A stretch of 64,000 nucleotides of DNA from Polyangia bacterium (lineage in GTDB: Bacteria > Myxococcota_A > Polyangia > Palsa-1104 > SHYY01), in NCBI GenBank assembly GCA_036263495.1, contig DATAGU010000095.1, positions 1,223 to 65,222 on the forward strand. Reading direction: 5' to 3'. Position numbers and translations under genes: made by a program. Position 1 is the first letter of the stretch; every line of letters starts with the position of its first letter. Of this stretch, positions 1 to 52,885 are shown piece by piece. The notes under the pieces were generated by a model, which saw only the letters and a program-made list of their open reading frames with translations, was not told the DNA's origin and searched no databases.

Positions 1-2514
1 AGCGTCAAAGGCTGGATCGACAAGGGCGACCACCGAGTGCGAGGGCGCAATGTCGGTGTTACGGCGCAGGAGGTCCCTGCCCGAAGTGAGATAGGTGAGG
101 TCGTAGGCTTCGACCAGAAAGGACGTGCCGTCATGGAGCGCGGCGAAGGGTATGAGGCTGAGCTGCCCGTCCGGAGAGAGGAACAGCTGGCGCTGCGAAC
201 CGAGGAGCGGGGCAATGGGCTGGAACACCAGATGATATAGCTCTTGGGATGCCTTGAGGTAGGCCGCATCGCGATGGGCCAGGGCGTCATGCAGGCGGGC
301 GACGGCGTTGTCGATCGCGGCGGTGGGGCCGAGATCGGCCACTCGGATATCGCGGTTGGGGAGTAGGACCAGGGCAAAGTAAACCGGAGTGATGTGGATC
401 TTGGAAGGGTCAGTTCCGGGCAGAGGCACGAGGGGATGGGCGGTAAAGGCGATGATCTCGATGAGCGCGCCATCGGTGGGCAACGCGGCCGCCGCGCGTG
501 CGATCACATCGGCGGGAAGGGGAAGCTGGCGCTGGGCTCGGAAGACCGCTGAGTGCTGGGCGAGTTCGGCCTCTAGGGTATCGCCCTGGATCTCCAGGTC
601 CTTGAGGCGCGCCTGGTAGGCGATGGGCGAGAACTGGCCCGGACCGCTATACGACAGGGCCGACAGCTGGGTTCGTAGGGCTCTTAGGCGCTGGAAGGTT
701 TCACGGTCCGCCTCGCCCAGACTGCGGTAAATGGTCCGCGAGATATCGGCGAGTTCGTCTACCGAGCGTCCCTTGTGCAAGAGCGCGCCGATGAGTGCTA
801 GACGGCGAACAGCGGATTCCGAAGGTCGTTTAAGGAGCAATTTGTAGAGGGTGACATCTTCATATCGCAGCAGACTGAGCAAATCGGCTAAGCGTGCCTC
901 CGAAAGGCCAAGGGCTTCTTTCCTGAGACGCTGTTCAGAAATGGCGAAGGCACGTTCGAACAAAGGCAACACGGAGCCATAGCGGTTCAGGGCGAGGTTG
1001 AGTTGGGCAAGATTTTTGAGTACTGTAGCGACATTGGGATGATTTTTTCCTAGGGTAGCTTCCGTGATCTGGAGCGCGCGCTGATACAGCGGCTCAGCTC
1101 GCCCATACTTCCCCTGGTCCGCGTAGAGAAGAGCAAGATTGTTGAGTACTGTAGCGACGTCCGGATGATTCTTTCCTAGCTTCGCCTCCCAGATCTGGAA
1201 AGCACGCTGAAACAGTGGCTCGGCGCGATCGTAGGCCCCCTGATAATAATAGAGACTGGCAAGGTTGCCGAGTGATGTAGCGACGTCCGGATGATTCTCT
1301 CCTAAAGTTGCTTCCAATATCTTGAGAGCTCGCTGAAGCAGTGGCTCGGCACGCTCATACGCCCCCTGGTCCGTGTAAATGGTGGCGAGATTATCGATTG
1401 ATATGGCGACGCTGGGATGATTCTTTCCTAGCTTCGCCTCCCGGATCTGGAGCACACGTTGAAATAGTGGTTCGGCTCGCGCGTACTCCCCTCCGTCTTG
1501 GTAGAGAAGAGCAAGGTTGTTGAGTACTGTAGCGACATCGGGATGGTCTTTTCCTAGGGCAGCTTCCAAGATCTGGAGAGCGCGCTGATACAGCGGCTCG
1601 GCTCGCCCATACTCCCCCTGAACCCTGTAGAGATTTGCAAGATTATCGATTGAAATTCCGATGTCAGGATGACCTTTTCCGTGGACTGTTTCTAGGATCT
1701 GGAGTGCACGCTGATACAGTACCTCAGCTTGAGCATACGCCCCCAGAGTCTTGTAGAGAAGAGCGTGATTGTTGAGTGCTGCGGCGACGCGGAGTTGACT
1801 CTGTCCCGAGGCCATTTCCAAGATCTGGAGTGCATGCTGATACAGCGCCTCAGCTCGTCCGTACTCCCCCTGGTTCATGTAGAGAAGAGCGAGATTGGTG
1901 AGTACTGTAGCGACGTCGGGATGATTCTTTCCTAGCTTCACCTCCTGGATCTGGAGAGCGCGCTGAAACAGCGGCCCGGCGCGCTGGTAGGCCCCCTGGG
2001 CCTGATAGAGGCTTGCGAGGTCGTTGAGGGATATGGCGACATCGGGATGATTCTTTCCCAGCACCGCCTCCCGGATCTGCAGAGAACGCAGATAGAGCGG
2101 CTCGGCGCGCTGGTAGGCCCCCTGGGCCCGATAGAGGCTTGCGAGGTCGTTGAGGGATATGGCGACGTCGGGATGATTCTTTCCCAGGGCCGCTTCCTGG
2201 ATCTTAAGAGCACGCAGATATAGAGGTTCGGCCTGTGAGAAGTTCCCCTGTCGTTGATGAAGTTTGCCGAGGGCATCAAGACATTCGGCCACCGCAAGAT
2301 GGTCCGGCCCCAGCGCCTTCTCCCGTAGCTGGACCGCATGCTCAGCCAGTGGCAGCGCTTCGGCATACTTCCCTTCCTGTCCGAGCCTCTCGACTTCCTC
2401 CAGCTCCTTCTGTGCCTGTGCCAGCTGCTCCACGGGGTGAGACTCCCCGGCCCTCGCTCCCGCGGCATAACAGACGACAATGATGACCGCAATCTGCCCT
2501 AAGACTGCACGCAT
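1..2514 (-). CDS. TPR-repeat (42-aa TPR_10/12-type) / CHAT-domain protein, partial (C-terminus runs off the window start)
   Basis: Reading the reverse complement from the ATG at 2512-2514 gives a signal-peptide-like N-terminus (MRAVLGQIAVIIVVCYAAGA). It is followed by about 13 tandem 42-aa repeats of type NLAxLYxxQGxYxRAEPLYQRALQIxExxLGKxHPDVAxxLNN, visible as a 126-bp DNA periodicity across 900-2500. The same frame continues to position 1 through a CHAT-like region (LYHLVFQPIAPLLGSQRQLFLSPDGQLSLIPFAALHDG). It is missing from the ORF track because it is open to the window edge. The listed ORF 1938..2492(-) is the +1 shadow of this frame. Confidence 0.75.
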   Translation of the reverse strand, partial: MRAVLGQIAVIIVVCYAAGARAGESHPVEQLAQAQKELEEVERLGQEGKYAEALPLAEHAVQLREKALGPDHLAVAECLDALGKLHQRQGNFSQAEPLYLRALKIQEAALGKNHPDVAISLNDLASLYRAQGAYQRAEPLYLRSLQIREAVLGKNHPDVAISLNDLASLYQAQGAYQRAGPLFQRALQIQEVKLGKNHPDVATVLTNLALLYMNQGEYGRAEALYQHALQILEMASGQSQLRVAAALNNHALLYKTLGAYAQAEVLYQRALQILETVHGKGHPDIGISIDNLANLYRVQGEYGRAEPLYQRALQILEAALGKDHPDVATVLNNLALLYQDGGEYARAEPLFQRVLQIREAKLGKNHPSVAISIDNLATIYTDQGAYERAEPLLQRALKILEATLGENHPDVATSLGNLASLYYYQGAYDRAEPLFQRAFQIWEAKLGKNHPDVATVLNNLALLYADQGKYGRAEPLYQRALQITEATLGKNHPNVATVLKNLAQLNLALNRYGSVLPLFERAFAISEQRLRKEALGLSEARLADLLSLLRYEDVTLYKLLLKRPSESAVRRLALIGALLHKGRSVDELADISRTIYRSLGEADRETFQRLRALRTQLSALSYSGPGQFSPIAYQARLKDLEIQGDTLEAELAQHSAVFRAQRQLPLPADVIARAAAALPTDGALIEIIAFTAHPLVPLPGTDPSKIHITPVYFALVLLPNRDIRVADLGPTAAIDNAVARLHDALAHRDAAYLKASQELYHLVFQPIAPLLGSQRQLFLSPDGQLSLIPFAALHDGTSFLVEAYDLTYLTSGRDLLRRNTDIAPSHSVVALVDPAFDA

Positions 2515-2569: not shown

Positions 2570-4075
<1,506 letters not shown>

Positions 4076-24172: not shown

Positions 24173-24583
24173 CTACCCGGGCCGCTCCTGGATCTCGCGC
24201 ACCGCGGCGCGGGCCCGCCGGGCGCGGGCCTCCTGGTCCTTGGCCGCGGCCCACTGTTCGAGCGTCAGGAGGGCCTCACGGCGCACGCCCTCGGCCGCAT
24301 CGTGGAGCGCGATGTGACGCAGGAGGGGGATGGCCTCGGCTTCACCGATCTCACGCAGCGCATAGACGAGGTGCTCGCGCCCGGATTCGTCGGCCGTATG
24401 GAGGGCGGCCTCGATCGGCGGCAGGGCGGCGACGCCGTGGCGTACCAGGCGGCGGGTCGCGGCCTGCATCATCTCCCCTTCGTGCGCCACGACGATCTGG
24501 ACGTCGCCGCGCAGCGCGTCCGGATCGTCACGGCAGGCGGTGAGGAGCAACGCCAGCGCCAGGCTCGCAAGACGCGTCGTCAT
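24173..24583 (-). CDS. Small lipoprotein with HEAT/PBS-lyase-like repeats
   Basis: A lipobox is present (LALALLLTAC). It contains Ala/Leu-rich helical repeats. Confidence 0.45.
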   Translation of the reverse strand: MTTRLASLALALLLTACRDDPDALRGDVQIVVAHEGEMMQAATRRLVRHGVAALPPIEAALHTADESGREHLVYALREIGEAEAIPLLRHIALHDAAEGVRREALLTLEQWAAAKDQEARARRARAAVREIQERPG

Positions 24584-24639: not shown

Positions 24640-24995
24640 AAGAGGGGACTCCCTGTGCGAACGGGGGTCCTCCCTGTCCGAAAGAGGGTCCTCCCTGTCC
24701 GAGAGAGGGTCCTCCCTGTCCGAAAAGGGGTCCTCCCTGCGCGAAAGGGGGTCCTCCCTGCGCGAAAGGGGGTCCTCCCTGCGCGAAAGGGGCGACTCCC
24801 TGTGCGAACGGGTCGACTCCCTGTGCGAACTGTGCGAACGGGGCGACTCCCTATGCGAACGGGGCGACTCCCTATGCGAACGGGGGACTCCCTGTGCCGA
24901 AAAGGCGGCTCCCTATGCGAACGGGGCGGCTCCCTGTGCCGAAAAGGCGGCTCCCTACGCGAACGGGGCGGCTCCCTGTGCCGAAAAGGCGACTC
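24640..24995. repeat. Degenerate tandem direct repeat array, ~21-bp unit x ~17 (consensus ~TCCTCCCTGTCCGAAAGAGGG / GACTCCCTATGCGAACGGGGC)
   Basis: The array is directly visible. It occupies the divergent intergenic region between the 24173..24583(-) lipoprotein and the 25157(+) monooxygenase. Unit length varies between 20 and 22 bp, so no reading frame is preserved. Confidence 0.85.
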
Positions 24996-25156
24996 CCTAT
25001 GCGAAAAGAGGGCACCCCATCAGCTTGTATGCGATGCCGCACGGCGCCCGGCGTCTCGCAACTCGCGACACGCTGCGCGGCTCGTGGGCTCGGGGGCCGG
25101 CCGGCCGGCCCTTTGGGCCTTTGTCCTGCACCCTGACTGCGGGTAAGCTCCCGGCC

Positions 25157-26632
25157 ATGTCGACCTCATGGGATGTCATCATCGCTGGCGGTGGCTTTGC
25201 CGGCTCGACGTTGGCCGCGGCGCTCGCCAATGGGAACCGGCGCGTGCTCTTGCTCGAGGCGCGCTCGGGACCGGACCCGCGCTTCCGAGGCGAGCTCATC
25301 CACCCGCCCGGCGTCTCGGTGCTCGAACGTCTCGGCCTGCTCGGCCCGCTCGACCGGGCGGGGGGCTTCCATGTCACCGGCTTTGCCGTGATCCCGGCCG
25401 GCGATCCGGACGCGGTGGTGTTGCCGTATGGCGAGGTCGAGGGCGGACGCCCTAGGGGCTTTGCCATCGATCACCGCGAAATGATCGCGGTCCTGCGCCA
25501 GGAGGCGGCCCAGCGCCCGGGCGTGGAGGTGCGCACCGGGCAGCGGGTGGCCGAGATCCTGCGCGAGGGCGACCGCGTGGTGGGCGTGCGCACCGCCGAC
25601 GGCACCGAGCATCGCGCGGCGCTCACGGTCGTGGCCGAGGGCCGCCACTCCAAGCTGCGCAGCGCGGCCGGCTTCCGCGAGGAGAGCCGGCTCCTGTCGT
25701 GGACCGCGGCGCTCCTGGTCAAGGACACCACGCTGCCCCAGCCGGGCTGCGGCCACGTCATCCTCGGCGCCCCCGGCCCCATCCTGGCCTACCCCATCGG
25801 CCGGAACGAGGTGCGCATGTGCATCGACGTCCCCTCGGACCTCACCAAGGGACGCGACGCCGTGGTGGAGCTCTTGCGCACTCGCTATGCCCCGCTCGTC
25901 CCCGAGCCGCTGCGCAGCGGCATGCTGGCCTCGCTCGACGCCGAGGCGCCGGAGATGTGCGCCAACCATGCCATCTACACGAGCGAGTGCGTGCAGCCGG
26001 GGCTCGCGCTCCTCGGTGACTCGGCCGGCTGCTCGCACCCCCTCGCCGCGAGCGGCATGACCGTCGTGCTGAGCGACGTGCGCATCCTCGCCGAGGAGCT
26101 CGCCCAGAAGGCCACGATCGACGAGGCGCTCGCCGCCTACCAGCGGCGGCGCTACCGCTTCGCGCGCGGCCGTGAGGTGCTCTCGGACGCGCTCTTCGAG
26201 GTGTTCCGGGCCGCCGACGCGGGCAACAACGCCCTGCGCGAGGGCATGTATCGGTACTGGCGCGGCAGCCGGCGGGCCCGCGCGGCCTCGGTGGGCGTGC
26301 TCTCGGGCCACGATGAGCGGGTCGTCGGCTTCGTCGCCGAGTACCTGCGGGTGTTCTTCGGCACGACCGGTCACATCTTGCTCGCCCGCGGCGGCGGCAG
26401 CCTGCGCGAGCGGCTCGGTTGCCTCGATCTGGCGGTGCGGTCGAGCTGGGCGCGGATGGACCGGGCCTTCAAGATCCTCTACCAGAACATGCGTCCCCGG
26501 ACCGGCACCGCCGATGGCCAGCGGGCGGCGCCGCCATCGCGATCGGCTGCCCCGAAGGCCTCCCCCGGATCCGAGCGCAAAGCGCAGCGCCCCGAGCCCG
26601 AGTCCCGCGCCGCCACGCCCCCCGCCGCCTGA
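25157..26632 (+). CDS. FAD-dependent monooxygenase, squalene-epoxidase-like
   Basis: A dinucleotide-binding GGGFAGS motif is present. An SE-family motif (LLGDSAGCSHPLAASGMTV) matches the GDAxNMRHPLTGGGMT signature. The start is trimmed to ATG 25157. Confidence 0.7.
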   Translation: MSTSWDVIIAGGGFAGSTLAAALANGNRRVLLLEARSGPDPRFRGELIHPPGVSVLERLGLLGPLDRAGGFHVTGFAVIPAGDPDAVVLPYGEVEGGRPRGFAIDHREMIAVLRQEAAQRPGVEVRTGQRVAEILREGDRVVGVRTADGTEHRAALTVVAEGRHSKLRSAAGFREESRLLSWTAALLVKDTTLPQPGCGHVILGAPGPILAYPIGRNEVRMCIDVPSDLTKGRDAVVELLRTRYAPLVPEPLRSGMLASLDAEAPEMCANHAIYTSECVQPGLALLGDSAGCSHPLAASGMTVVLSDVRILAEELAQKATIDEALAAYQRRRYRFARGREVLSDALFEVFRAADAGNNALREGMYRYWRGSRRARAASVGVLSGHDERVVGFVAEYLRVFFGTTGHILLARGGGSLRERLGCLDLAVRSSWARMDRAFKILYQNMRPRTGTADGQRAAPPSRSAAPKASPGSERKAQRPEPESRAATPPAA

Positions 26633-48105: not shown

Positions 48106-50031
48106 TCAGGCCGCCGGCGGGGCCGGGGGGGTCGTCGGGGATGGGGGGTCTTCGCCGCTCCCGGCCGGCGGGGCGCGGTGGGGTTCGTCGTGCGCGGGCA
48201 GGAACACGCGGAAGCAGGTGCCGGGCATCTCTCCCTGCATGGGAGGCCGACCGTCGACCTCGATCCAGCCGTCATGATCCTTCACGATCCCCTGCGAGAC
48301 GGCCAGGCCGAGCCCGGTGCCGCCGAGATCCTGCTTGGTCGAATAGAAGGCCTCGAAGATGCGCTCCCGCTCCTCGGGCGCGATGCCGACGCCCGTGTCG
48401 GCGACCTCGAGGATCACGTAGCGGCCGGGCGGGGCGACGTCGAGGCCGGGCTTGCGCCGCACCTGGGCCGAGCAGCCGATGGTGAGCGTGCCGCCCTCGG
48501 GCATGGCCTGGATGGCGTTGACGCACAGGTTGATGCACACCTGCTGGAGCTGGTCGGCGTCGCCCGTCACGACCGGGCGCTCGGGCACGGCCGCGCCGTC
48601 GCCGTGGGGGGCGGGCACGGCCTGGAAGCCGAGCAGGCGCGCGCTCACCCGCGACTGCGCGAGCTGGTGCTCGAGGAAGTCGACGGTGTCGCGGATGACC
48701 ACCGAGAGGTCCACGGGCCCGTGCACGACCGTCTTCTGGCGCGCGAAGGCGAGCAGCTGCTGGATGATCTTGGTGATGCGCGCGGCCTGGGCGGCGATGA
48801 TGCCGGCGTTCTTCTGCACCTCGGCGGGGTCGAGGAGGCCGGGCGCGCTCGCCGGCGCGGCGCCCTCGCCCTCGCGCGGCCCTTCGGCCTCGGCCAGCTG
48901 GCGGAGCGCCTCGGCGGTCTTCTTCTCCATGCCGCGCGCCCGGCCGTGGATGACCGACAGCGGCGTGCCCACCTCGTGCGCGATGTTGGCGGCGATCTGA
49001 CCGATGGTGGCCAGCTTCTCCGAGTGGCGCAGCCGCGCCTCGAGGCCGAGCTTGGTCTCGAGGCCGCGCTGGGTCTCGGCGCGCGCCTCGCGGAGGCTGG
49101 CGGTCATCTGGTTGAAGCGGTCGGCGAGGTCGCCGATCTCGTCGTCGCGCTCGCGCAGGATGGCGCGGGTGAGGTCGCCCACCGTGACCTCGTCGATGCC
49201 TTCGACCAGGCGCTCGAGCGGGTGGGAGATGGCGCGCCGGGTGGTCAGCCAGACGAGGAGCGCGAGGCCGAGGCCCACGCCGATGACCGTGGCGGCGACG
49301 CGCAGCATGGTGGCGGTCAGCTCGGCGGCCACGTCGCTCTCGTCGCGCACGAGGTCGATGGCCGCGACCACCTGATCGTGCTCGTCGCGGAGCGGCACGG
49401 TGCAGGCGTAGACCGACCCGCGCTCGGTCACGAGGTGCTCGGCGTAGGGCGTGCCGTCGATCTGGATGCGCCGGATGCGCTCGTCGCGCGCGGCGTCGGG
49501 CGGCGGCGGCACGTAGCGGGCCTCCTCGTCGTCGTTCGGGTTCGGGCCGCCATCGAGGCCGAGGGCGCCGCCGGCAGCGGCGGCCGGGCCGGCGGCCGGA
49601 GGACCCGCGGCGTTGGCCGCGGTGGTGTTGGCCGCGGTGGTGTTGGCCGCGGTGGTGTTGGCCGGCGGGTTGGCGTTGGCCGGGGCGTCGGCGGTCTGGC
49701 CGGCGTCCGGGCTGCCGGGGCTCGGTGCAGCTGGCGGGCCCGCGCCAGGCGTCTGGTCGCTGGCGTGCAGCTCGAGGTAGGTGATCTGGACCCGCGGCTG
49801 CGCCGCCTCGATGCGCGCCACGAGGCGCCGCACGTCCTCGAACAGACCCTCCTGCAGCGCGGCCTCGAGCGCGACCTGGAGCGTGAGGCCGATCGATTGC
49901 GTCTGCCGTTCGAGCTCGGCGGTGAGCTCGGCGCGCTTCTCCCGCACGGCGACGATGCCGTAGATGGTGAGCGCCACCATCACGAGCGCGGTGGTGGTGA
50001 GCGTGATGCGGGTGCCGAGCTTCACGGTCAC
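48106..50031 (-). CDS. Sensor histidine kinase (2 TM, HAMP, HisKA, HATPase_c); partner of the 46422 regulator
   Basis: A second TM helix and a HAMP domain are present (DEIGDLADRFNQM). The H-box is HEVGTPL and the G-box is GGTGLGLAVSQGIV. The periplasmic region contains an (ANTTA)n repeat. Confidence 0.85.
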   Translation of the reverse strand: MTVKLGTRITLTTTALVMVALTIYGIVAVREKRAELTAELERQTQSIGLTLQVALEAALQEGLFEDVRRLVARIEAAQPRVQITYLELHASDQTPGAGPPAAPSPGSPDAGQTADAPANANPPANTTAANTTAANTTAANAAGPPAAGPAAAAGGALGLDGGPNPNDDEEARYVPPPPDAARDERIRRIQIDGTPYAEHLVTERGSVYACTVPLRDEHDQVVAAIDLVRDESDVAAELTATMLRVAATVIGVGLGLALLVWLTTRRAISHPLERLVEGIDEVTVGDLTRAILRERDDEIGDLADRFNQMTASLREARAETQRGLETKLGLEARLRHSEKLATIGQIAANIAHEVGTPLSVIHGRARGMEKKTAEALRQLAEAEGPREGEGAAPASAPGLLDPAEVQKNAGIIAAQAARITKIIQQLLAFARQKTVVHGPVDLSVVIRDTVDFLEHQLAQSRVSARLLGFQAVPAPHGDGAAVPERPVVTGDADQLQQVCINLCVNAIQAMPEGGTLTIGCSAQVRRKPGLDVAPPGRYVILEVADTGVGIAPEERERIFEAFYSTKQDLGGTGLGLAVSQGIVKDHDGWIEVDGRPPMQGEMPGTCFRVFLPAHDEPHRAPPAGSGEDPPSPTTPPAPPAA

Positions 50032-50092: not shown

Positions 50093-50485
50093 ATGCGCAA
50101 CGTTTACTGGAGTGCCCTGTTCCTCGCCCTCACGGCCGGCGGCTGCAGCGTGCCTACGGCCCGGTCGGCTGAAAACCCCCCTCCGCCGGCGGCCCAGCCG
50201 GCCCAGCCGGCCCCTGCCCAGCCCGCGGAGTCGCCTCCGCCCGCGCCGCCGCTCAAGACCGGCAGCGCGCGCGTGCCGGATGCGCAGGGGAAGCCGTGCC
50301 CGGACGGAAAGTGTCCGGCGCCGCTCACCTGCGTCAGCTACTACGGCTTTGCCGGGCCGCGAGGGCCCAAGTTCACCTCGTGCGAGATCCCCTGCCCCGG
50401 GGGTGGCAAGTGCCCCCCTGGACAAACGTGCGGGATCATCGCCGATGGTCCCGGCCAGGTCTGCCGCCCCACCGGCCAGCCCTGA
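50093..50485 (+). CDS. Small Cys-rich lipoprotein
   Basis: A GAGG SD and an AT-rich -10-like stretch lie upstream. A lipobox is present (LFLALTAGGC), followed by a Pro-rich linker and CPxGKC modules. Confidence 0.6.
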   Translation: MRNVYWSALFLALTAGGCSVPTARSAENPPPPAAQPAQPAPAQPAESPPPAPPLKTGSARVPDAQGKPCPDGKCPAPLTCVSYYGFAGPRGPKFTSCEIPCPGGGKCPPGQTCGIIADGPGQVCRPTGQP

Positions 50486-50489
50486 GCCC

Positions 50490-50860
50490 CCAGGACCTGG
50501 GTCTCTCCGGCCCCCAATGGGTCTCTCCGGCCCCCAATGGGTCTCTTTTAGACCCAGTGGGTACATCAAGACCCCCAATGGGTCTCTGAGAGCCCCCACG
50601 CGACGCCTGGAGGCCGCCAATCCCCTTGGGGCACAAGCCACTGGTGATGGAGAGGGCGATTTCTGGGTCTCTTTTTGACCCATTGGGTCTCTCAGAGACC
50701 CCAGTGGAGGCCGCCGGGTCTCCACTGGAGGCCCGGACGTCTCCATTGGAGGTCTCGGGGTCTCCAATGGAGGCCTTGGGGTCTCCATTGGAGGTCTTGG
50801 GGGCTCTATTGGCGGTCTTGGGGGCACCAGGGGAGGCCCGGGGGGCTCCCCTGGCGGAGA
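50490..50860. repeat. Cluster of short palindromic/direct repeat units (GGGTCTC..GAGACCC hairpins; ~6 tandem ~22-bp GGTCTCCAnTGGAGGyCTTGGG units)
   Basis: The cluster is directly visible in the convergent intergenic region between 50093..50485(+) and 50868..52517(-). It contains the perfect palindrome GGGTCTCTCAGAGACCC. Confidence 0.75.
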
Positions 50861-50867
50861 GATCAGC

Positions 50868-52517
50868 TCAGATGCCGCAGGCGGTCCAGGCCTGGGCCAC
50901 GGTGTTGTACTGCGCGCTGCCGGAGCCGAAGATCGCGGCGGCGGCGCTCAAGGTGGCGTTGCGCGCGCCGGCGAAGTTGGTGGACGAGGTCATGTACGAG
51001 GTGAGGGCGCGGTACCAGATGCGCTCGCACGCGCTGTAGCCGATGCCGCTCACGGTCACGCCGCTCCGGTGATGCGTGCCGCCCTGCGAGCAGAGGTAGA
51101 AGACGTAGTTCGGGATGCCCGAGTTGATGTGCACGCCGCCGTTGTCCGAGGTGCCGGTGTAGCGCTCGGCGTAGTGGTCGGGATCGTCGTCGGCGGTGAA
51201 GCCGGAGTTCTTGGCGAGGTGCGGGTTGTACATGTAGCGCAGCGCGTCGCCCGCGGTGGCCGGGGTGTAGGCCTGCTCGCCGATCTGCCAGGTGCGGGTG
51301 TCGGGGCTGACGCCGCGCGCGTAGCGCTCGACCATGGAGCCGAAGACGTCGGACATGGACTCGTTGAGGGCGCCCGACTCGCCCGAGTAGGTGAGGTTGG
51401 CGGTGAACTGGGTGACGCCGTGGGTCATCTCGTGGCCCGCGATGTCGACGGTGACGAGCGGCGAGAAGGTGGTGCCGTCGCCGTCGCCGTAGGTCATGAC
51501 CGAGCCGTTCCAGTAGGCGTTGTTGTAGGCGCTGCCGTAGTGCACGACCGAGCTGATGAGGCCGACGGTGCTGCCCGCCACCCAGCCGTAGTAGCCGGGG
51601 CCGCCCGCGTTGTTGATGCCGTAGCGGCCGTGGGTGTTGCGGTAGTACTCCCACACCTGGCGGGCGCCGAAGTGGGCGTCGACGGCGGCGCGCTGCGTGG
51701 CGCCGTTCCAGAGGTTGTCGGCGTCGGAGAAGCGGTAGACCGAGCCCTGGGTGTTGCGGGCGTCGAAGGTGCCGATGCGGCGGTTGACGCCGGTGACGAC
51801 GGCGGTGTTCTCTTCGAGGTAGTAGGCGCCGTTGTAGAGGGTGGTCTCGACGCTGACGGTGCCGCTGTAGAGCGATGAGCCGGTGCCGGCCACGGTCTGG
51901 AGATCGTTGTACCTCCAGACGATCTCGCCGCTGTGGGCGTCGACGAAGTAGACCGGGAGCGCGGTCTCCCGGCTGCCGTCCTCGCGGCGCAGCTGCACGC
52001 GGTAGGCGAGGTGATCCCGGCCCTCGTGACGCAGCACCCACAGGTCGGCCTTGGGCTTGGTGGTCAGGCAGTCCGAGCAGCCGTACGCGGCGACGGCGAG
52101 GCGGATGGCGTCGGCCTGGGGCACGACGGGGGTGGTGTCGACCTTGATGTCGCGCCGCAGCGTGTCGCTGACGGTCTGGAGTGAGCCGCTCTGGCCGAGG
52201 TGGACGATGGCCTCGCCGCCAAAGACGGGGACGCCGTGGAGGGTCTGCTGGTAGCGGGTGTGGCTGTATCCGTCGTCGTCACCGAATTGGCGGGTGATGC
52301 GGAGGTCGTCGTCGCGGCCGATGTCGGCGTTGCCCACGGTGCGGCGCAGGTGGTCGCGGCTGATGGCGTCGAGCTGTGGGTCCGGGGCGCGCGTCGCCAC
52401 TTCATCCTGGGGCGAGGCACGGTCCGCCGTCCCGCAGCCCGGGGCGAAGGCCAGTGTTGTGGAGACGGCAACGGCCGACAGGGGAAGGTGCAGCTTCCGA
52501 TTCCAGCGTGCGCTCAT
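50868..52517 (-). CDS. Secreted M4 (thermolysin-family) zinc metalloprotease
   Basis: The zinc-binding motif is HEMTHGV...GALNESMSDVFG. A signal peptide and pro-region are present. The start is trimmed to ATG 52517 (MSARWNRKL), which has a GAGGAGG SD. Confidence 0.85.
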   Translation of the reverse strand: MSARWNRKLHLPLSAVAVSTTLAFAPGCGTADRASPQDEVATRAPDPQLDAISRDHLRRTVGNADIGRDDDLRITRQFGDDDGYSHTRYQQTLHGVPVFGGEAIVHLGQSGSLQTVSDTLRRDIKVDTTPVVPQADAIRLAVAAYGCSDCLTTKPKADLWVLRHEGRDHLAYRVQLRREDGSRETALPVYFVDAHSGEIVWRYNDLQTVAGTGSSLYSGTVSVETTLYNGAYYLEENTAVVTGVNRRIGTFDARNTQGSVYRFSDADNLWNGATQRAAVDAHFGARQVWEYYRNTHGRYGINNAGGPGYYGWVAGSTVGLISSVVHYGSAYNNAYWNGSVMTYGDGDGTTFSPLVTVDIAGHEMTHGVTQFTANLTYSGESGALNESMSDVFGSMVERYARGVSPDTRTWQIGEQAYTPATAGDALRYMYNPHLAKNSGFTADDDPDHYAERYTGTSDNGGVHINSGIPNYVFYLCSQGGTHHRSGVTVSGIGYSACERIWYRALTSYMTSSTNFAGARNATLSAAAAIFGSGSAQYNTVAQAWTACGI

Positions 52518-52885
52518 GCTCGTACCTCCTCGCTTGCCCTCGGTCACAAAGACGCGGCGCGATTGAATCGCATCCATCTTGGGATGGACCTAACTCCCAA
52601 CATAATACCGATCCCAGGGTCGGGCAGCGCTCGGGGATCGCAGGGCGCGCAGGCGGAGGGAGGGCCCCTCCCCCCGACGACAGGCCGAGCCCGGCGGGGA
52701 GCTTCCGCCTTGACATGAGGGGGACTCCCTCGTACACCCCAACGTTGAAAAGCTCAGATGAAGCGGAACGTGCGTCGGTCGGCAGCTGTGAGAGGGTTTG
52801 ACGAGCCGTTTGACGTACCAACGATCGCCGCGGTATCTTTCACTCTCTCCCCGTCGGAAAACCTGCAAAGAATAGGGAGTTTGGC

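What the first reader, a model, noticed from the sequence alone, without database searches (positions are those of the whole stretch)
50490..50860. Dense cluster of hairpin-forming GGTCTC/GAGACC-based repeat units between convergent genes
Two exact 22-bp direct repeats (GGGTCTCTCCGGCCCCCAATGG x2) come first. Several GGGTCTC-loop-GAGACCC palindromes follow, then six tandem ~22-bp units each carrying the palindrome CTCCAnTGGAG. The cluster resembles a REP/BIME-like or MITE-like element cluster acting as a bidirectional terminator or a recombination hotspot. The minus-strand ORF over it (PRPPMET repeats) is a translation artefact of the repeats.
Basis: seen in the sequence. Interest (0 to 1): 0.5.

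Follow-up and report, generated by a model that had tools for sequence, protein, structure and literature searches.

The report
Variable hairpin minisatellite between convergent genes
The 380-bp gap between two tail-to-tail genes of an uncultured soil myxobacterium (class Polyangia) is filled with head-to-tail 20-21-bp hairpin-forming units whose number and sequence change quickly between close relatives. It is most likely an ordinary variable tandem repeat that also makes stem-loops at the ends of both mRNAs, and nothing found here marks it as a mobile REP or MITE element.

Summary
Window 50486-50867 is the whole spacer between a small Cys-rich protein gene (+, ends 50485) and an M4 thermolysin-like protease gene (-, ends 50868). 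It consists of quasi-palindromic units. Part A has a 20-bp period and includes two exact copies. A degenerate middle follows. Part B has eight phased 21-bp units, four carrying the exact palindrome CTCCANTGGAG. Both strands fold far better than shuffles (z -6.8 and -8.2).

The REP/BIME/MITE reading is not supported by what I could test:
- No unit occurs elsewhere in the 64-kb window.
- There is no GTAG/CGTC tag and no transposase gene.
- Rfam, plasmid and phage searches found nothing.

The same spacer in the closest relatives carries homologous but differently expanded arrays. More distant relatives have none, and one has a plain hairpin followed by a U-rich tract instead. A 99.8%-identical population variant has four rather than two copies of the 20-bp unit.

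Best reading: a locus-bound hairpin minisatellite (VNTR) growing by slippage, probably acting incidentally as a U-tract-less two-way terminator or 3'-end protector. Genome-wide copy number could not be tested. A second, unrelated 21-bp hairpin array lies at 24640-25010, between divergent genes.

The parts
50093..50485 (+). Flanking gene: 130-aa small Cys-rich protein with a signal-peptide-like N-terminus. Its stop codon lies 13 nt before the first repeat unit.
   Evidence: ORF. 214 homologues; some carry PF27854 (eight-cysteine-cluster). The 100% identical hit is named 'MAG TPA: hypothetical protein VH877_08390 [Polyangia bacterium]'.
50486..50867 (.). The whole 382-bp convergent spacer. It is made entirely of fresh or decayed 20-21-bp quasi-palindromic units. 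GC is 61-63%, against 68-78% in the flanks.
   Evidence: RNA fold z -6.8 (+) and -8.2 (-).
50498..50600 (+). Part A: about five units of 20-21 bp, (CC)CAATGG + GGTCTC...; the left-hand copies are the youngest.
   Evidence: Family D2; TRF period 20. L290 carries the related unit GGGTCTCTGAGAGCCCCATT at the same place.
50499..50540 (+). Two exact copies of the 20-bp unit GGGTCTCTCCGGCCCCCAAT. This is the variable-number site: the population variant L001 has four copies.
   Evidence: 40 gap positions in an otherwise about 99.8% identical 3.2-kb alignment.
50601..50664 (.). Degenerate middle segment. It contains eroded unit pieces (CCTGGAGGCCGCCAAT, CCACTGG, CCCCTTGGGG) and is not conserved in L002.
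   Evidence: Sequence; L002 spacer.
50665..50701 (+). Two adjacent hairpins, GGGTCTCTTTTTGACCC and the perfect GGGTCTCTCAGAGACCC. This segment is inverted relative to part A (arms 50499-50557 against 50663-50701).
   Evidence: Inverted repeats I2-I4, I6, I9. The 50683-50703 hairpin folds at -11.1 kcal/mol.
50694..50861 (+). Part B: eight phased 21-bp units, GGGGTCTCCAWTGGAGGYCTT. Arms GGTCTCC/GGAGRCC alternate with loops AWT and TTGG, so each arm can pair with either neighbour.
   Evidence: TRF period 21, 6.9 copies. Phased matches. Unit table. 84.6% of arm cells paired against 35-60% for slid controls.
50827..50854 (-). Strongest single hairpin, 13 nt downstream of the protease stop: CCAGGGGAGCCCC-CC-GGGCCTCCCCTGG on the - strand. 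No U-tract follows.
   Evidence: I12. The 60-nt 3' segment folds at -28.3 kcal/mol, z -3.0.
50868..52577 (-). Flanking gene: M4 (thermolysin-like) metallopeptidase, complete at its C-terminus.
   Evidence: Pfam FTP + Peptidase_M4 + Peptidase_M4_C; homologues.

Best explanation
A locus-bound, fast-evolving tandem array (minisatellite/VNTR) of 20-21-bp quasi-palindromic units has taken over the 3'-to-3' spacer between two convergent genes.

Inferred mechanism: the units form hairpins on single strands. This favours slipped-strand mispairing and unequal exchange, so units are gained, lost and homogenised in place (concerted evolution). Old units decay in the middle of the spacer.

Because transcripts of both genes run into the array, its stem-loops probably act as a U-tract-less, two-way transcription stop and/or a block to 3' exonucleases. 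That effect is likely incidental to the repeat's own dynamics rather than its cause.

Shown: repeat anatomy, hairpin potential, orthologous position, copy-number change, unit turnover.
Inferred: slippage mechanism, terminator/stabiliser effect.
For: - Anatomy and non-randomness.
- Strong structure on both strands.
- Units are unique to this locus within 64 kb.
- Copy-number polymorphism in one population: L001 is about 99.8% identical but has 4 rather than 2 copies of the 20-bp unit.
- The closest relatives carry homologous arrays with different units and counts at the same spot. L002 has about 9 copies of CGGGCCGCCAATGGCGGTCGC, 14/21 identical to the window unit; 0 of 300 shuffles reach this. 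L290 has GGGTCTCTGAGAGCCCCATT units directly after the stop.
- More distant relatives lack an array. L003 has a 104-bp spacer with a 10-bp GC stem followed by a U-rich tract, i.e. a conventional terminator. L291 has a different neighbouring gene.
- Palindromy is kept while the arm sequence changed: U-A to G-C at one pair, with 84.6% of cells paired.
- No transposase, integrase or replication/partition gene among the 36 GC3-supported ORFs tested in the window.
- No Rfam family.
- Assemblers break inside the array in three independent contigs (L001, L004, L290).
Against: - Genome-wide copy number was not measured.
- Termination is not shown. There is no U-tract, and the consensus scan is at chance level.
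- Covariation is formally not significant: one compensated pair, and 86 of 500 shuffles reach the score.
- A second 21-bp hairpin array in the window lies between divergent genes. Arrays of this kind therefore do not need a terminator position, which weakens any claim that termination is why the array exists.
- The copy-number difference rests on short-read assemblies.
Confidence: 0.6

Rival explanations
1. A cluster of a dispersed mobile family: a REP/BIME-type cluster, or a MITE that carries an internal minisatellite, like BrickBuilt of Porphyromonas gingivalis. It would have been inserted into this spacer in an ancestor of the window/L002/L290 clade.
For: - The units are 17-21-bp GC-rich palindromes in alternating arm order, extragenic and between convergent genes, as is typical of REPs (PMC3184786).
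- The two ends of the region are inverted copies of each other: 50484-50498 against 50792-50806 and 50834-50848, at 87-93%.
- Part A is weakly an inverted version of part B (13/20, p about 0.05).
- The array is absent from the more distant relatives L003 and L291.
- BrickBuilt is a precedent for a 23-nt minisatellite inside a MITE (PMC4596501).
Against: - No other copy in 63.6 kb at up to 2 mismatches.
- No GTAG or CGTC tag.
- No transposase match among the 36 GC3-supported ORFs tested in the window.
- The other array in the window is unrelated in sequence.
- No match in plasmids or phages.
- The inverted 'ends' are simply unit junctions.
- No target-site duplication is evident.
- The L003 spacer is not a clean empty site.
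Confidence: 0.15
2. A phased array of binding sites for a dimeric DNA-binding protein. The palindromes are spaced 21 bp apart, i.e. two helical turns, so all sites face the same side of the helix. This would resemble iterons, centromere-like sites or a nucleoid-protein loading platform.
For: - Exact 21-bp phasing of eight palindromes.
- The CCAWTGG core is kept in the window, L002 and L290 while the flanking arms change.
- The second array in the window also has a 21-bp period.
Against: - The arms that would give specificity differ between close relatives.
- No isolated copies of the site elsewhere in the window; CCAWTGG outside the array is at chance level.
- No replication, partition or phage genes nearby.
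- Part A has a 20-bp period and varies by 20-bp steps.
- No sigma-54 promoter nearby that would make the sites enhancer-binding-protein sites.
Confidence: 0.1
3. A structured non-coding RNA in its own right, for example a protein-sponge RNA with many repeated stem-loops, transcribed from the spacer.
For: - Very stable folds on both strands.
- The part B unit hairpin is twice as stable as + strand RNA (-12.0 kcal/mol, with a G.U pair) as it is as - strand RNA (-6.2, C.A mismatch). L002 shows the same asymmetry.
Against: - No Rfam family reaches its threshold; the only hits are generic hairpin (miRNA-type) matches far below gathering scores.
- No promoter-like site.
- Sequence and unit number are not conserved even among close relatives.
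- The GGA motifs lie in stems, not in loops.
Confidence: 0.07
4. Coding sequence: either a heptad-repeat protein (PRPPMET on the - strand, GSPLEXX on the + strand) or a read-through extension of the protease.
For: - A 21-bp period equals 7 codons.
- The frame after the protease stop stays open for about 144 codons.
- L002 gives a similar heptad in the same frame (xAxIGxP).
Against: - No Pfam hit for either ORF.
- Third-position GC of the unit is only 4-5 of 7 in every frame, against 0.85-0.97 in real genes here.
- The - strand ORF is antisense to a conserved gene.
- Part A varies by 20-bp steps.
- The protease domain is complete at its stop.
- Orthologues end at the same residue with TGA or TAG, and L003 has no array.
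- 5 of the 7 differences between the window unit and the L002 unit are non-synonymous.
Confidence: 0.03

Closest known systems
VNTR / minisatellite loci of bacteria (e.g. mycobacterial MIRU-VNTR)
   Same: Head-to-tail units in an intergenic spacer. Copy number differs between near-identical genomes (2 vs 4 units). Units are homogenised within a locus and diverge between lineages.
   Different: MIRUs are a dispersed family present at many loci, whereas here only one locus is known.
REP sequences and BIME clusters (Enterobacteria, Pseudomonas, Stenotrophomonas SMAG)
   Same: Short GC-rich extragenic palindromes, sometimes clustered in alternating orientation, favoured between convergent genes. 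They can stabilise upstream mRNA or stop transcription (PMC3184786, PMC3733652).
   Different: REPs occur in hundreds of dispersed copies. Most carry a GTAG or CGTC tag and associate with RAYT transposases. Here there are no dispersed copies in 64 kb, no tag and no RAYT found. The units are directly tandem with a fixed period and not separated by BIME linker motifs.
BrickBuilt MITE of Porphyromonas gingivalis (minisatellite inside a MITE)
   Same: A spacer-less tandem array of about 23-nt units, always intergenic, with flanking segments that include small inverted repeats (PMC4596501).
   Different: BrickBuilt occurs 19 times per genome and has defined leader and tail subunits. No second copy was found here, and the flanks are just more repeat units.
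[quoted passage not shown]
   Same: [quoted passage not shown]
   Different: SPRITE is a dispersed element of about 105 bp with a U-tract motif. It is not a local tandem array.
Intrinsic (Rho-independent) terminators
   Same: GC-rich stem-loops start 13 nt after each stop codon. The array-less relative L003 has a conventional hairpin followed by a U-rich tract at the same place.
   Different: No U-tract follows the hairpins here, and there are many tandem hairpins in place of one.

Membership tests
REP / BIME | High copy number, dispersed through the genome (tens to hundreds of copies) | tested here: inconclusive
   Zero further copies in the other 63.6 kb of the window at up to 2 mismatches.
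REP / BIME | Unit is a 20-40-bp imperfect palindrome, GC-rich and extragenic | tested here: met
   17-21-bp palindromic units in an intergenic spacer. Unit hairpins fold at -10 to -12 kcal/mol.
REP / BIME | Conserved GTAG or CGTC tetranucleotide at one end of the palindrome (most REP families, PMC3733652) | tested here: not met
   The units begin GGGTC/GGGGTC. CGTC appears in only one variant unit (50738-50741) and GTAG nowhere.
REP / BIME | Associated RAYT (IS200/IS605-like tyrosine transposase) in the genome | tested here: inconclusive
   None of the 36 GC3-supported ORFs of the window has a transposase domain. A RAYT could lie elsewhere in the genome.
MITE (including the BrickBuilt type) | Terminal inverted repeats and a target-site duplication | tested here: inconclusive
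   The ends are 87-93% complementary (I8, I10), but they are ordinary unit junctions. No flanking direct duplication is visible.
MITE (including the BrickBuilt type) | Multiple copies at unrelated loci; filled and empty sites between strains | tested here: inconclusive
   No second copy in the window. L003 and L291 lack the array, but their spacers are not clean empty sites. Relatives that have the array show in-place divergence, not identical insertions. The rest of the genome was not searched.
VNTR / minisatellite | Head-to-tail units of about 10-100 bp without spacers | tested here: met
   TRF: period 20 (2.5 copies, 100% match) and period 21 (6.9 copies).
VNTR / minisatellite | Copy number varies between closely related genomes | tested here: met
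   L001 (about 99.8% identical outside the indel) has 4 copies of the 20-bp unit against 2 in the window. L002 has about 9 part-B-type units against 8 here, with a different unit sequence.
Intrinsic terminator | GC-rich stem-loop shortly after the stop codon | tested here: met
   The hairpin at 50827-50854 lies 13 nt after the protease stop (-28.3 kcal/mol for the 60-nt segment). Hairpins begin 13 nt after the + gene stop.
Intrinsic terminator | U-rich tract immediately after the stem | tested here: not met
   UGCCCCCAAG follows the protease-side hairpin. The consensus scan gave 1 weak site against 0.5 expected.
Intrinsic terminator | Transcript 3' ends map to the hairpins | not testable with these tools
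   No transcriptome data for this uncultured organism.
Iterons / phased protein-binding array | Same recognition sequence conserved in relatives, with a linked replication/partition or regulator gene | tested here: not met
   The arms differ between the window and L002; only the CCAWTGG core is kept. No rep/par genes and no sigma-54 promoter nearby.
CRISPR array | Repeats separated by unique spacers of similar length | tested here: not met
   The units abut directly, with a period of 20-21 bp and no spacers.
Known RNA family (Rfam 15) | Score at or above the family's gathering threshold | tested here: not met
   The best hit scores 31.7 bits against an 88-bit threshold. It is a generic miRNA-hairpin model.

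The most novel reading that the evidence does not exclude
This Polyangia lineage may harbour a previously undescribed class of 21-bp (two-helical-turn) hairpin minisatellites that colonise intergenic DNA of any gene orientation. Two long arrays of unrelated sequence lie in 64 kb, one between convergent and one between divergent genes. By comparison, 0.89 Mb of unrelated prokaryotic DNA held a single array of comparable period. Such arrays might be generated or maintained by a dedicated hairpin-dependent amplification process. Alternatively they might serve as phased platforms for a DNA- or RNA-binding protein, with palindromy actively preserved while the arm sequence drifts.
Probability: 0.12. 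Interest if true: 0.55.

Novelty: new member of a known kind. Interest (0 to 1): 0.25.

Why it matters
If the reading is right, this is a textbook-style example, in a poorly sampled myxobacterial lineage, of a hairpin seeding a self-expanding tandem array at a gene's 3' end. The array then evolves in concert faster than the flanking genes.

Practical consequences:
- Such arrays break metagenome assemblies. Three of the contigs covering this locus end inside it.
- They generate spurious long ORFs in high-GC genomes.
- They could serve as strain-typing markers.

The finding would matter more only if the arrays prove to be a genome-wide, actively maintained class in this lineage.

Tried and rejected
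1. Genome-collection scan with GGTCTCCAWTGGAGG. The 15-mer was too unspecific.

2. Metagenome and viral scans for three CCAWTGG motifs at 21-bp spacing. These returned mostly coding heptad repeats of unrelated organisms. A handful of non-coding hairpin arrays turned up (L141, L179, L242, L143, L205). Unit-to-unit comparison showed no similarity beyond the motif I had selected for.

3. A common superfamily for the two arrays of the window: rejected.

4. Rfam: only sub-threshold generic hairpin hits.

5. Enhancer-binding-protein sites for a sigma-54 promoter (NtrC-type regulator genes are nearby): no sigma-54 promoter within kilobases.

6. Coding or read-through reading: rejected (and codon comparison of the units).

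7. Covariation test on 13 units: palindromy is clear, but the compensatory signal is one pair and is not significant.

8. Plasmid and phage collections: no match.

9. Sampling 42 kb of two other Polyangia genomes (L294, L295): only coding repeats with periods in multiples of 3, and no 21-bp hairpin arrays. The sample is too small to generalise.

Full report
**What is there**

Window 50486-50867 is the complete spacer between two convergent genes. The + strand gene (50093-50485) encodes a 130-aa Cys-rich protein. It has 214 homologues, and its 100% match is annotated as a hypothetical protein of a 'Polyangia bacterium' MAG with locus tag VH877_08390. The - strand gene (50868-52577) encodes a complete M4 thermolysin-like peptidase.

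The spacer is 61-63% GC against 68-78% in the flanks. It is built wholly of short quasi-palindromic units.
- Part A (50498-50600) has a 20-21-bp period. It starts with two exact copies of GGGTCTCTCCGGCCCCCAAT.
- A degenerate middle (50601-50664) contains eroded unit fragments.
- Two hairpins follow at 50665-50701, including the only perfect GGGTCTC-N3-GAGACCC.
- Part B (50694-50861) consists of eight units phased at exactly 21 bp. The four central ones carry a perfect CTCCANTGGAG.

The arms GGTCTCC/GGAGRCC alternate with loops AWT and TTGG, so each arm can pair with either neighbour. The first unit starts 13 nt after one stop codon, and the last hairpin ends 13 nt before the other.

**Is it more than chance?**

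Yes. Unit motifs give 4-5 matches against 0.2-0.3 expected, all at this locus. As RNA the 382 nt fold at -230.5 kcal/mol on the + strand (z -6.8) and -212.6 kcal/mol on the - strand (z -8.2). No shuffle does as well. Two contigs from an independent metagenome assembly of the same population reproduce the sequence (L001, L004).

**Is it a dispersed family?**

Within the window it is not.
- A short-word BLAST of the array against the other 63.6 kb gives only chance 11-13-mers. Degenerate unit patterns have no outside hit at up to 2 mismatches for part B or up to 1 for part A.
- The units lack the GTAG/CGTC tags that mark most REP families (PMC3733652).
- None of the 36 GC3-supported ORFs in the window has a transposase, integrase, reverse-transcriptase or replication/partition domain. 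The context is ordinary myxobacterial chromosome: sigma-54 activators, histidine and Ser/Thr kinases, ComEC, oxidoreductases.
- Rfam gives only generic hairpin matches far below threshold.
- Plasmid and phage collections give nothing.

I could not test the rest of the genome. This is the main gap in the analysis.

**Evolution at the locus**

Five related contigs cover this neighbourhood.
- **L001/L004** are the same population (99.8-99.9% identity). L001 has four copies of the 20-bp unit where the window has two, plus one A-to-C change in a part B unit.
- **L290** (83-89% nucleotide identity) has part-A-type units GGGTCTCTGAGAGCCCCATT directly after the stop codon. Its contig ends inside the array.
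- **L002** (84-92% identity) has, at the same position, about nine nearly identical 21-bp units CGGGCCGCCAATGGCGGTCGC. These are 14/21 identical to the window's part B unit, and 0 of 300 shuffles reach that. The palindrome is kept through a U-A to G-C exchange at one arm position.
- **L003 and L291** (81-82% identity) have no array. L003 has a 104-bp spacer with a 10-bp GC stem followed by a U-rich tract. L291 has a different neighbouring gene.

The array is therefore inherited at this spot within a narrow clade. It changes unit number within a population and unit sequence between sister lineages. It replaces what is a conventional terminator in an outgroup. This is the behaviour of a minisatellite under concerted evolution, not of a recently transposed element.

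**Is palindromy selected?**

Across 13 distinct units, 84.6% of arm cells pair, against 35-60% when the partner is slid by 1-3 columns. Only one pair shows a double change, and 86 of 500 column shuffles reach the covariation score. Palindromy is a robust property of the units, but selection for it is not demonstrated. A mutational bias, in which hairpin-forming units slip and expand more readily, would explain it equally well.

One curiosity concerns strand asymmetry. In both the window and L002, the imperfect arm positions are G.U on the window's + strand and C.A on the - strand. As a result the unit hairpin folds at -12.0 kcal/mol on the + strand against -6.2 on the - strand. With two lineages this could easily be chance.

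**Function**

Both transcripts must run into the array, and strong stems start 13 nt after each stop. The 60-nt protease-side segment, for example, folds at -28.3 kcal/mol. A role as a two-way stop signal or 3'-exonuclease block is therefore reasonable. It parallels what is reported for REP/SMAG elements (PMC3184786).

There is no U-tract, however, and the consensus terminator scan is at chance level. In addition, a second 21-bp hairpin array in the same window lies upstream of two divergent genes, where it cannot terminate either. That array is at 24640-25010, has about 18 units of GACTCCCTGTGCGAACGGGGC, and is unrelated in sequence. I therefore treat termination as a likely side effect and not as the reason the array exists.

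**Rivals**

- The coding reading fails. There are no family hits. Third-position GC of the unit is 4-5 of 7 in every frame, against 0.85-0.97 in real genes here. Part A varies by 20-bp steps. The protease is complete at its stop codon. The - strand ORF is antisense to a conserved gene.
- A phased protein-binding array fits the exact two-turn spacing and the conserved CCAWTGG core. It does not fit the changing arms, the absence of isolated sites, or the gene context.
- An independent structured RNA has no promoter, no conservation and no Rfam support.
- A REP/MITE family, possibly of the BrickBuilt type (PMC4596501), remains possible until the whole genome is searched.

**Wider context**

In 0.89 Mb of unrelated prokaryotic DNA that I happened to have fetched, only one array with period 18-24 and at least 3 copies was found. 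In 42 kb from two other Polyangia genomes there was no non-coding 21-bp array. Two long arrays in 64 kb is therefore unusual.

A metagenome scan for phased CCAWTGG motifs returned mostly coding heptad repeats. It also returned a few non-coding hairpin arrays in unrelated contigs. These share nothing with the present units beyond the motif I selected for.

**Verdict**

The family assignment is unsupported. The best description is a locus-bound, variable hairpin minisatellite, a new member of a known kind and of modest interest.

Noticed in passing
window 24640-25010: A second long tandem array: about 18 units of 21 bp, GACTCCCTGTGCGAACGGGGC, with arms CCCT/GGGG around a GTGCGAA loop. It is unrelated in sequence to the finding. 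It lies between DIVERGENT genes (a HEAT-repeat protein gene starting at 24583 on the - strand, and a FAD-monooxygenase-like gene starting near 25158 on the + strand). It is identical in an independent metagenome contig (L292), while a Logan contig (L293) ends inside it.
   Followed up: partly
L001 (ends at 3213), L004 (ends at 1631), L290 (ends at 1829), L293 (starts in array 2): Independent short-read assemblies break inside these arrays. The tandem hairpin repeats act as assembly breakpoints in metagenomes.
   Followed up: partly
L003 1997-2100: The array-less relative has a conventional terminator at the same place: a 10-bp GC stem (GGAGGAGGGG...CCUCCUCC) followed by a U/C-rich tract. Its CCTCC-N3-GGAGG hairpin resembles the CTCC-AWT-GGAG core of the window's units, which hints that the array may have been seeded by a terminator hairpin.
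   Followed up: partly
window 50757-50777 and the L002 units: Strand asymmetry of the unit hairpin. The imperfect arm positions are G.U on the window's + strand and C.A on the - strand, in both the window and L002 (-12.0 vs -6.2 kcal/mol). This could hint at function in the + strand RNA, or it could be chance.
   Followed up: partly
L179 3190-3350; L141 850-1250; L242 740-1010; L143 700-860; L205 160-340: Unrelated metagenome contigs carry non-coding 21-bp-period arrays of palindromic units with CCAWTGG between variable stems. The motif was imposed by my search pattern, and the units show no further similarity to the window's units.
   Followed up: partly
window 1007-2232: A 126-bp-period repeat with 9.7 copies. 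On the - strand the consensus reads as a 42-residue TPR-like repeat (…[40 protein letters not shown]…). It is probably part of a gene that runs off the window start.
   Followed up: no
window 49608-49705: A 15-bp tandem repeat inside the histidine-kinase gene (48106-50031, - strand). It encodes an ANTTA-type low-complexity stretch (…NTTAANTTAANTTAAN…).
   Followed up: no
window 50484-50560 against 50663-50848: Part A is weakly an inverted version of part B (inverted repeats I2, I3, I8, I10; unit comparison 13/20 on the opposite strand). Each convergent gene therefore sees units of the same polarity downstream of its stop, a mirror-like layout.
   Followed up: partly
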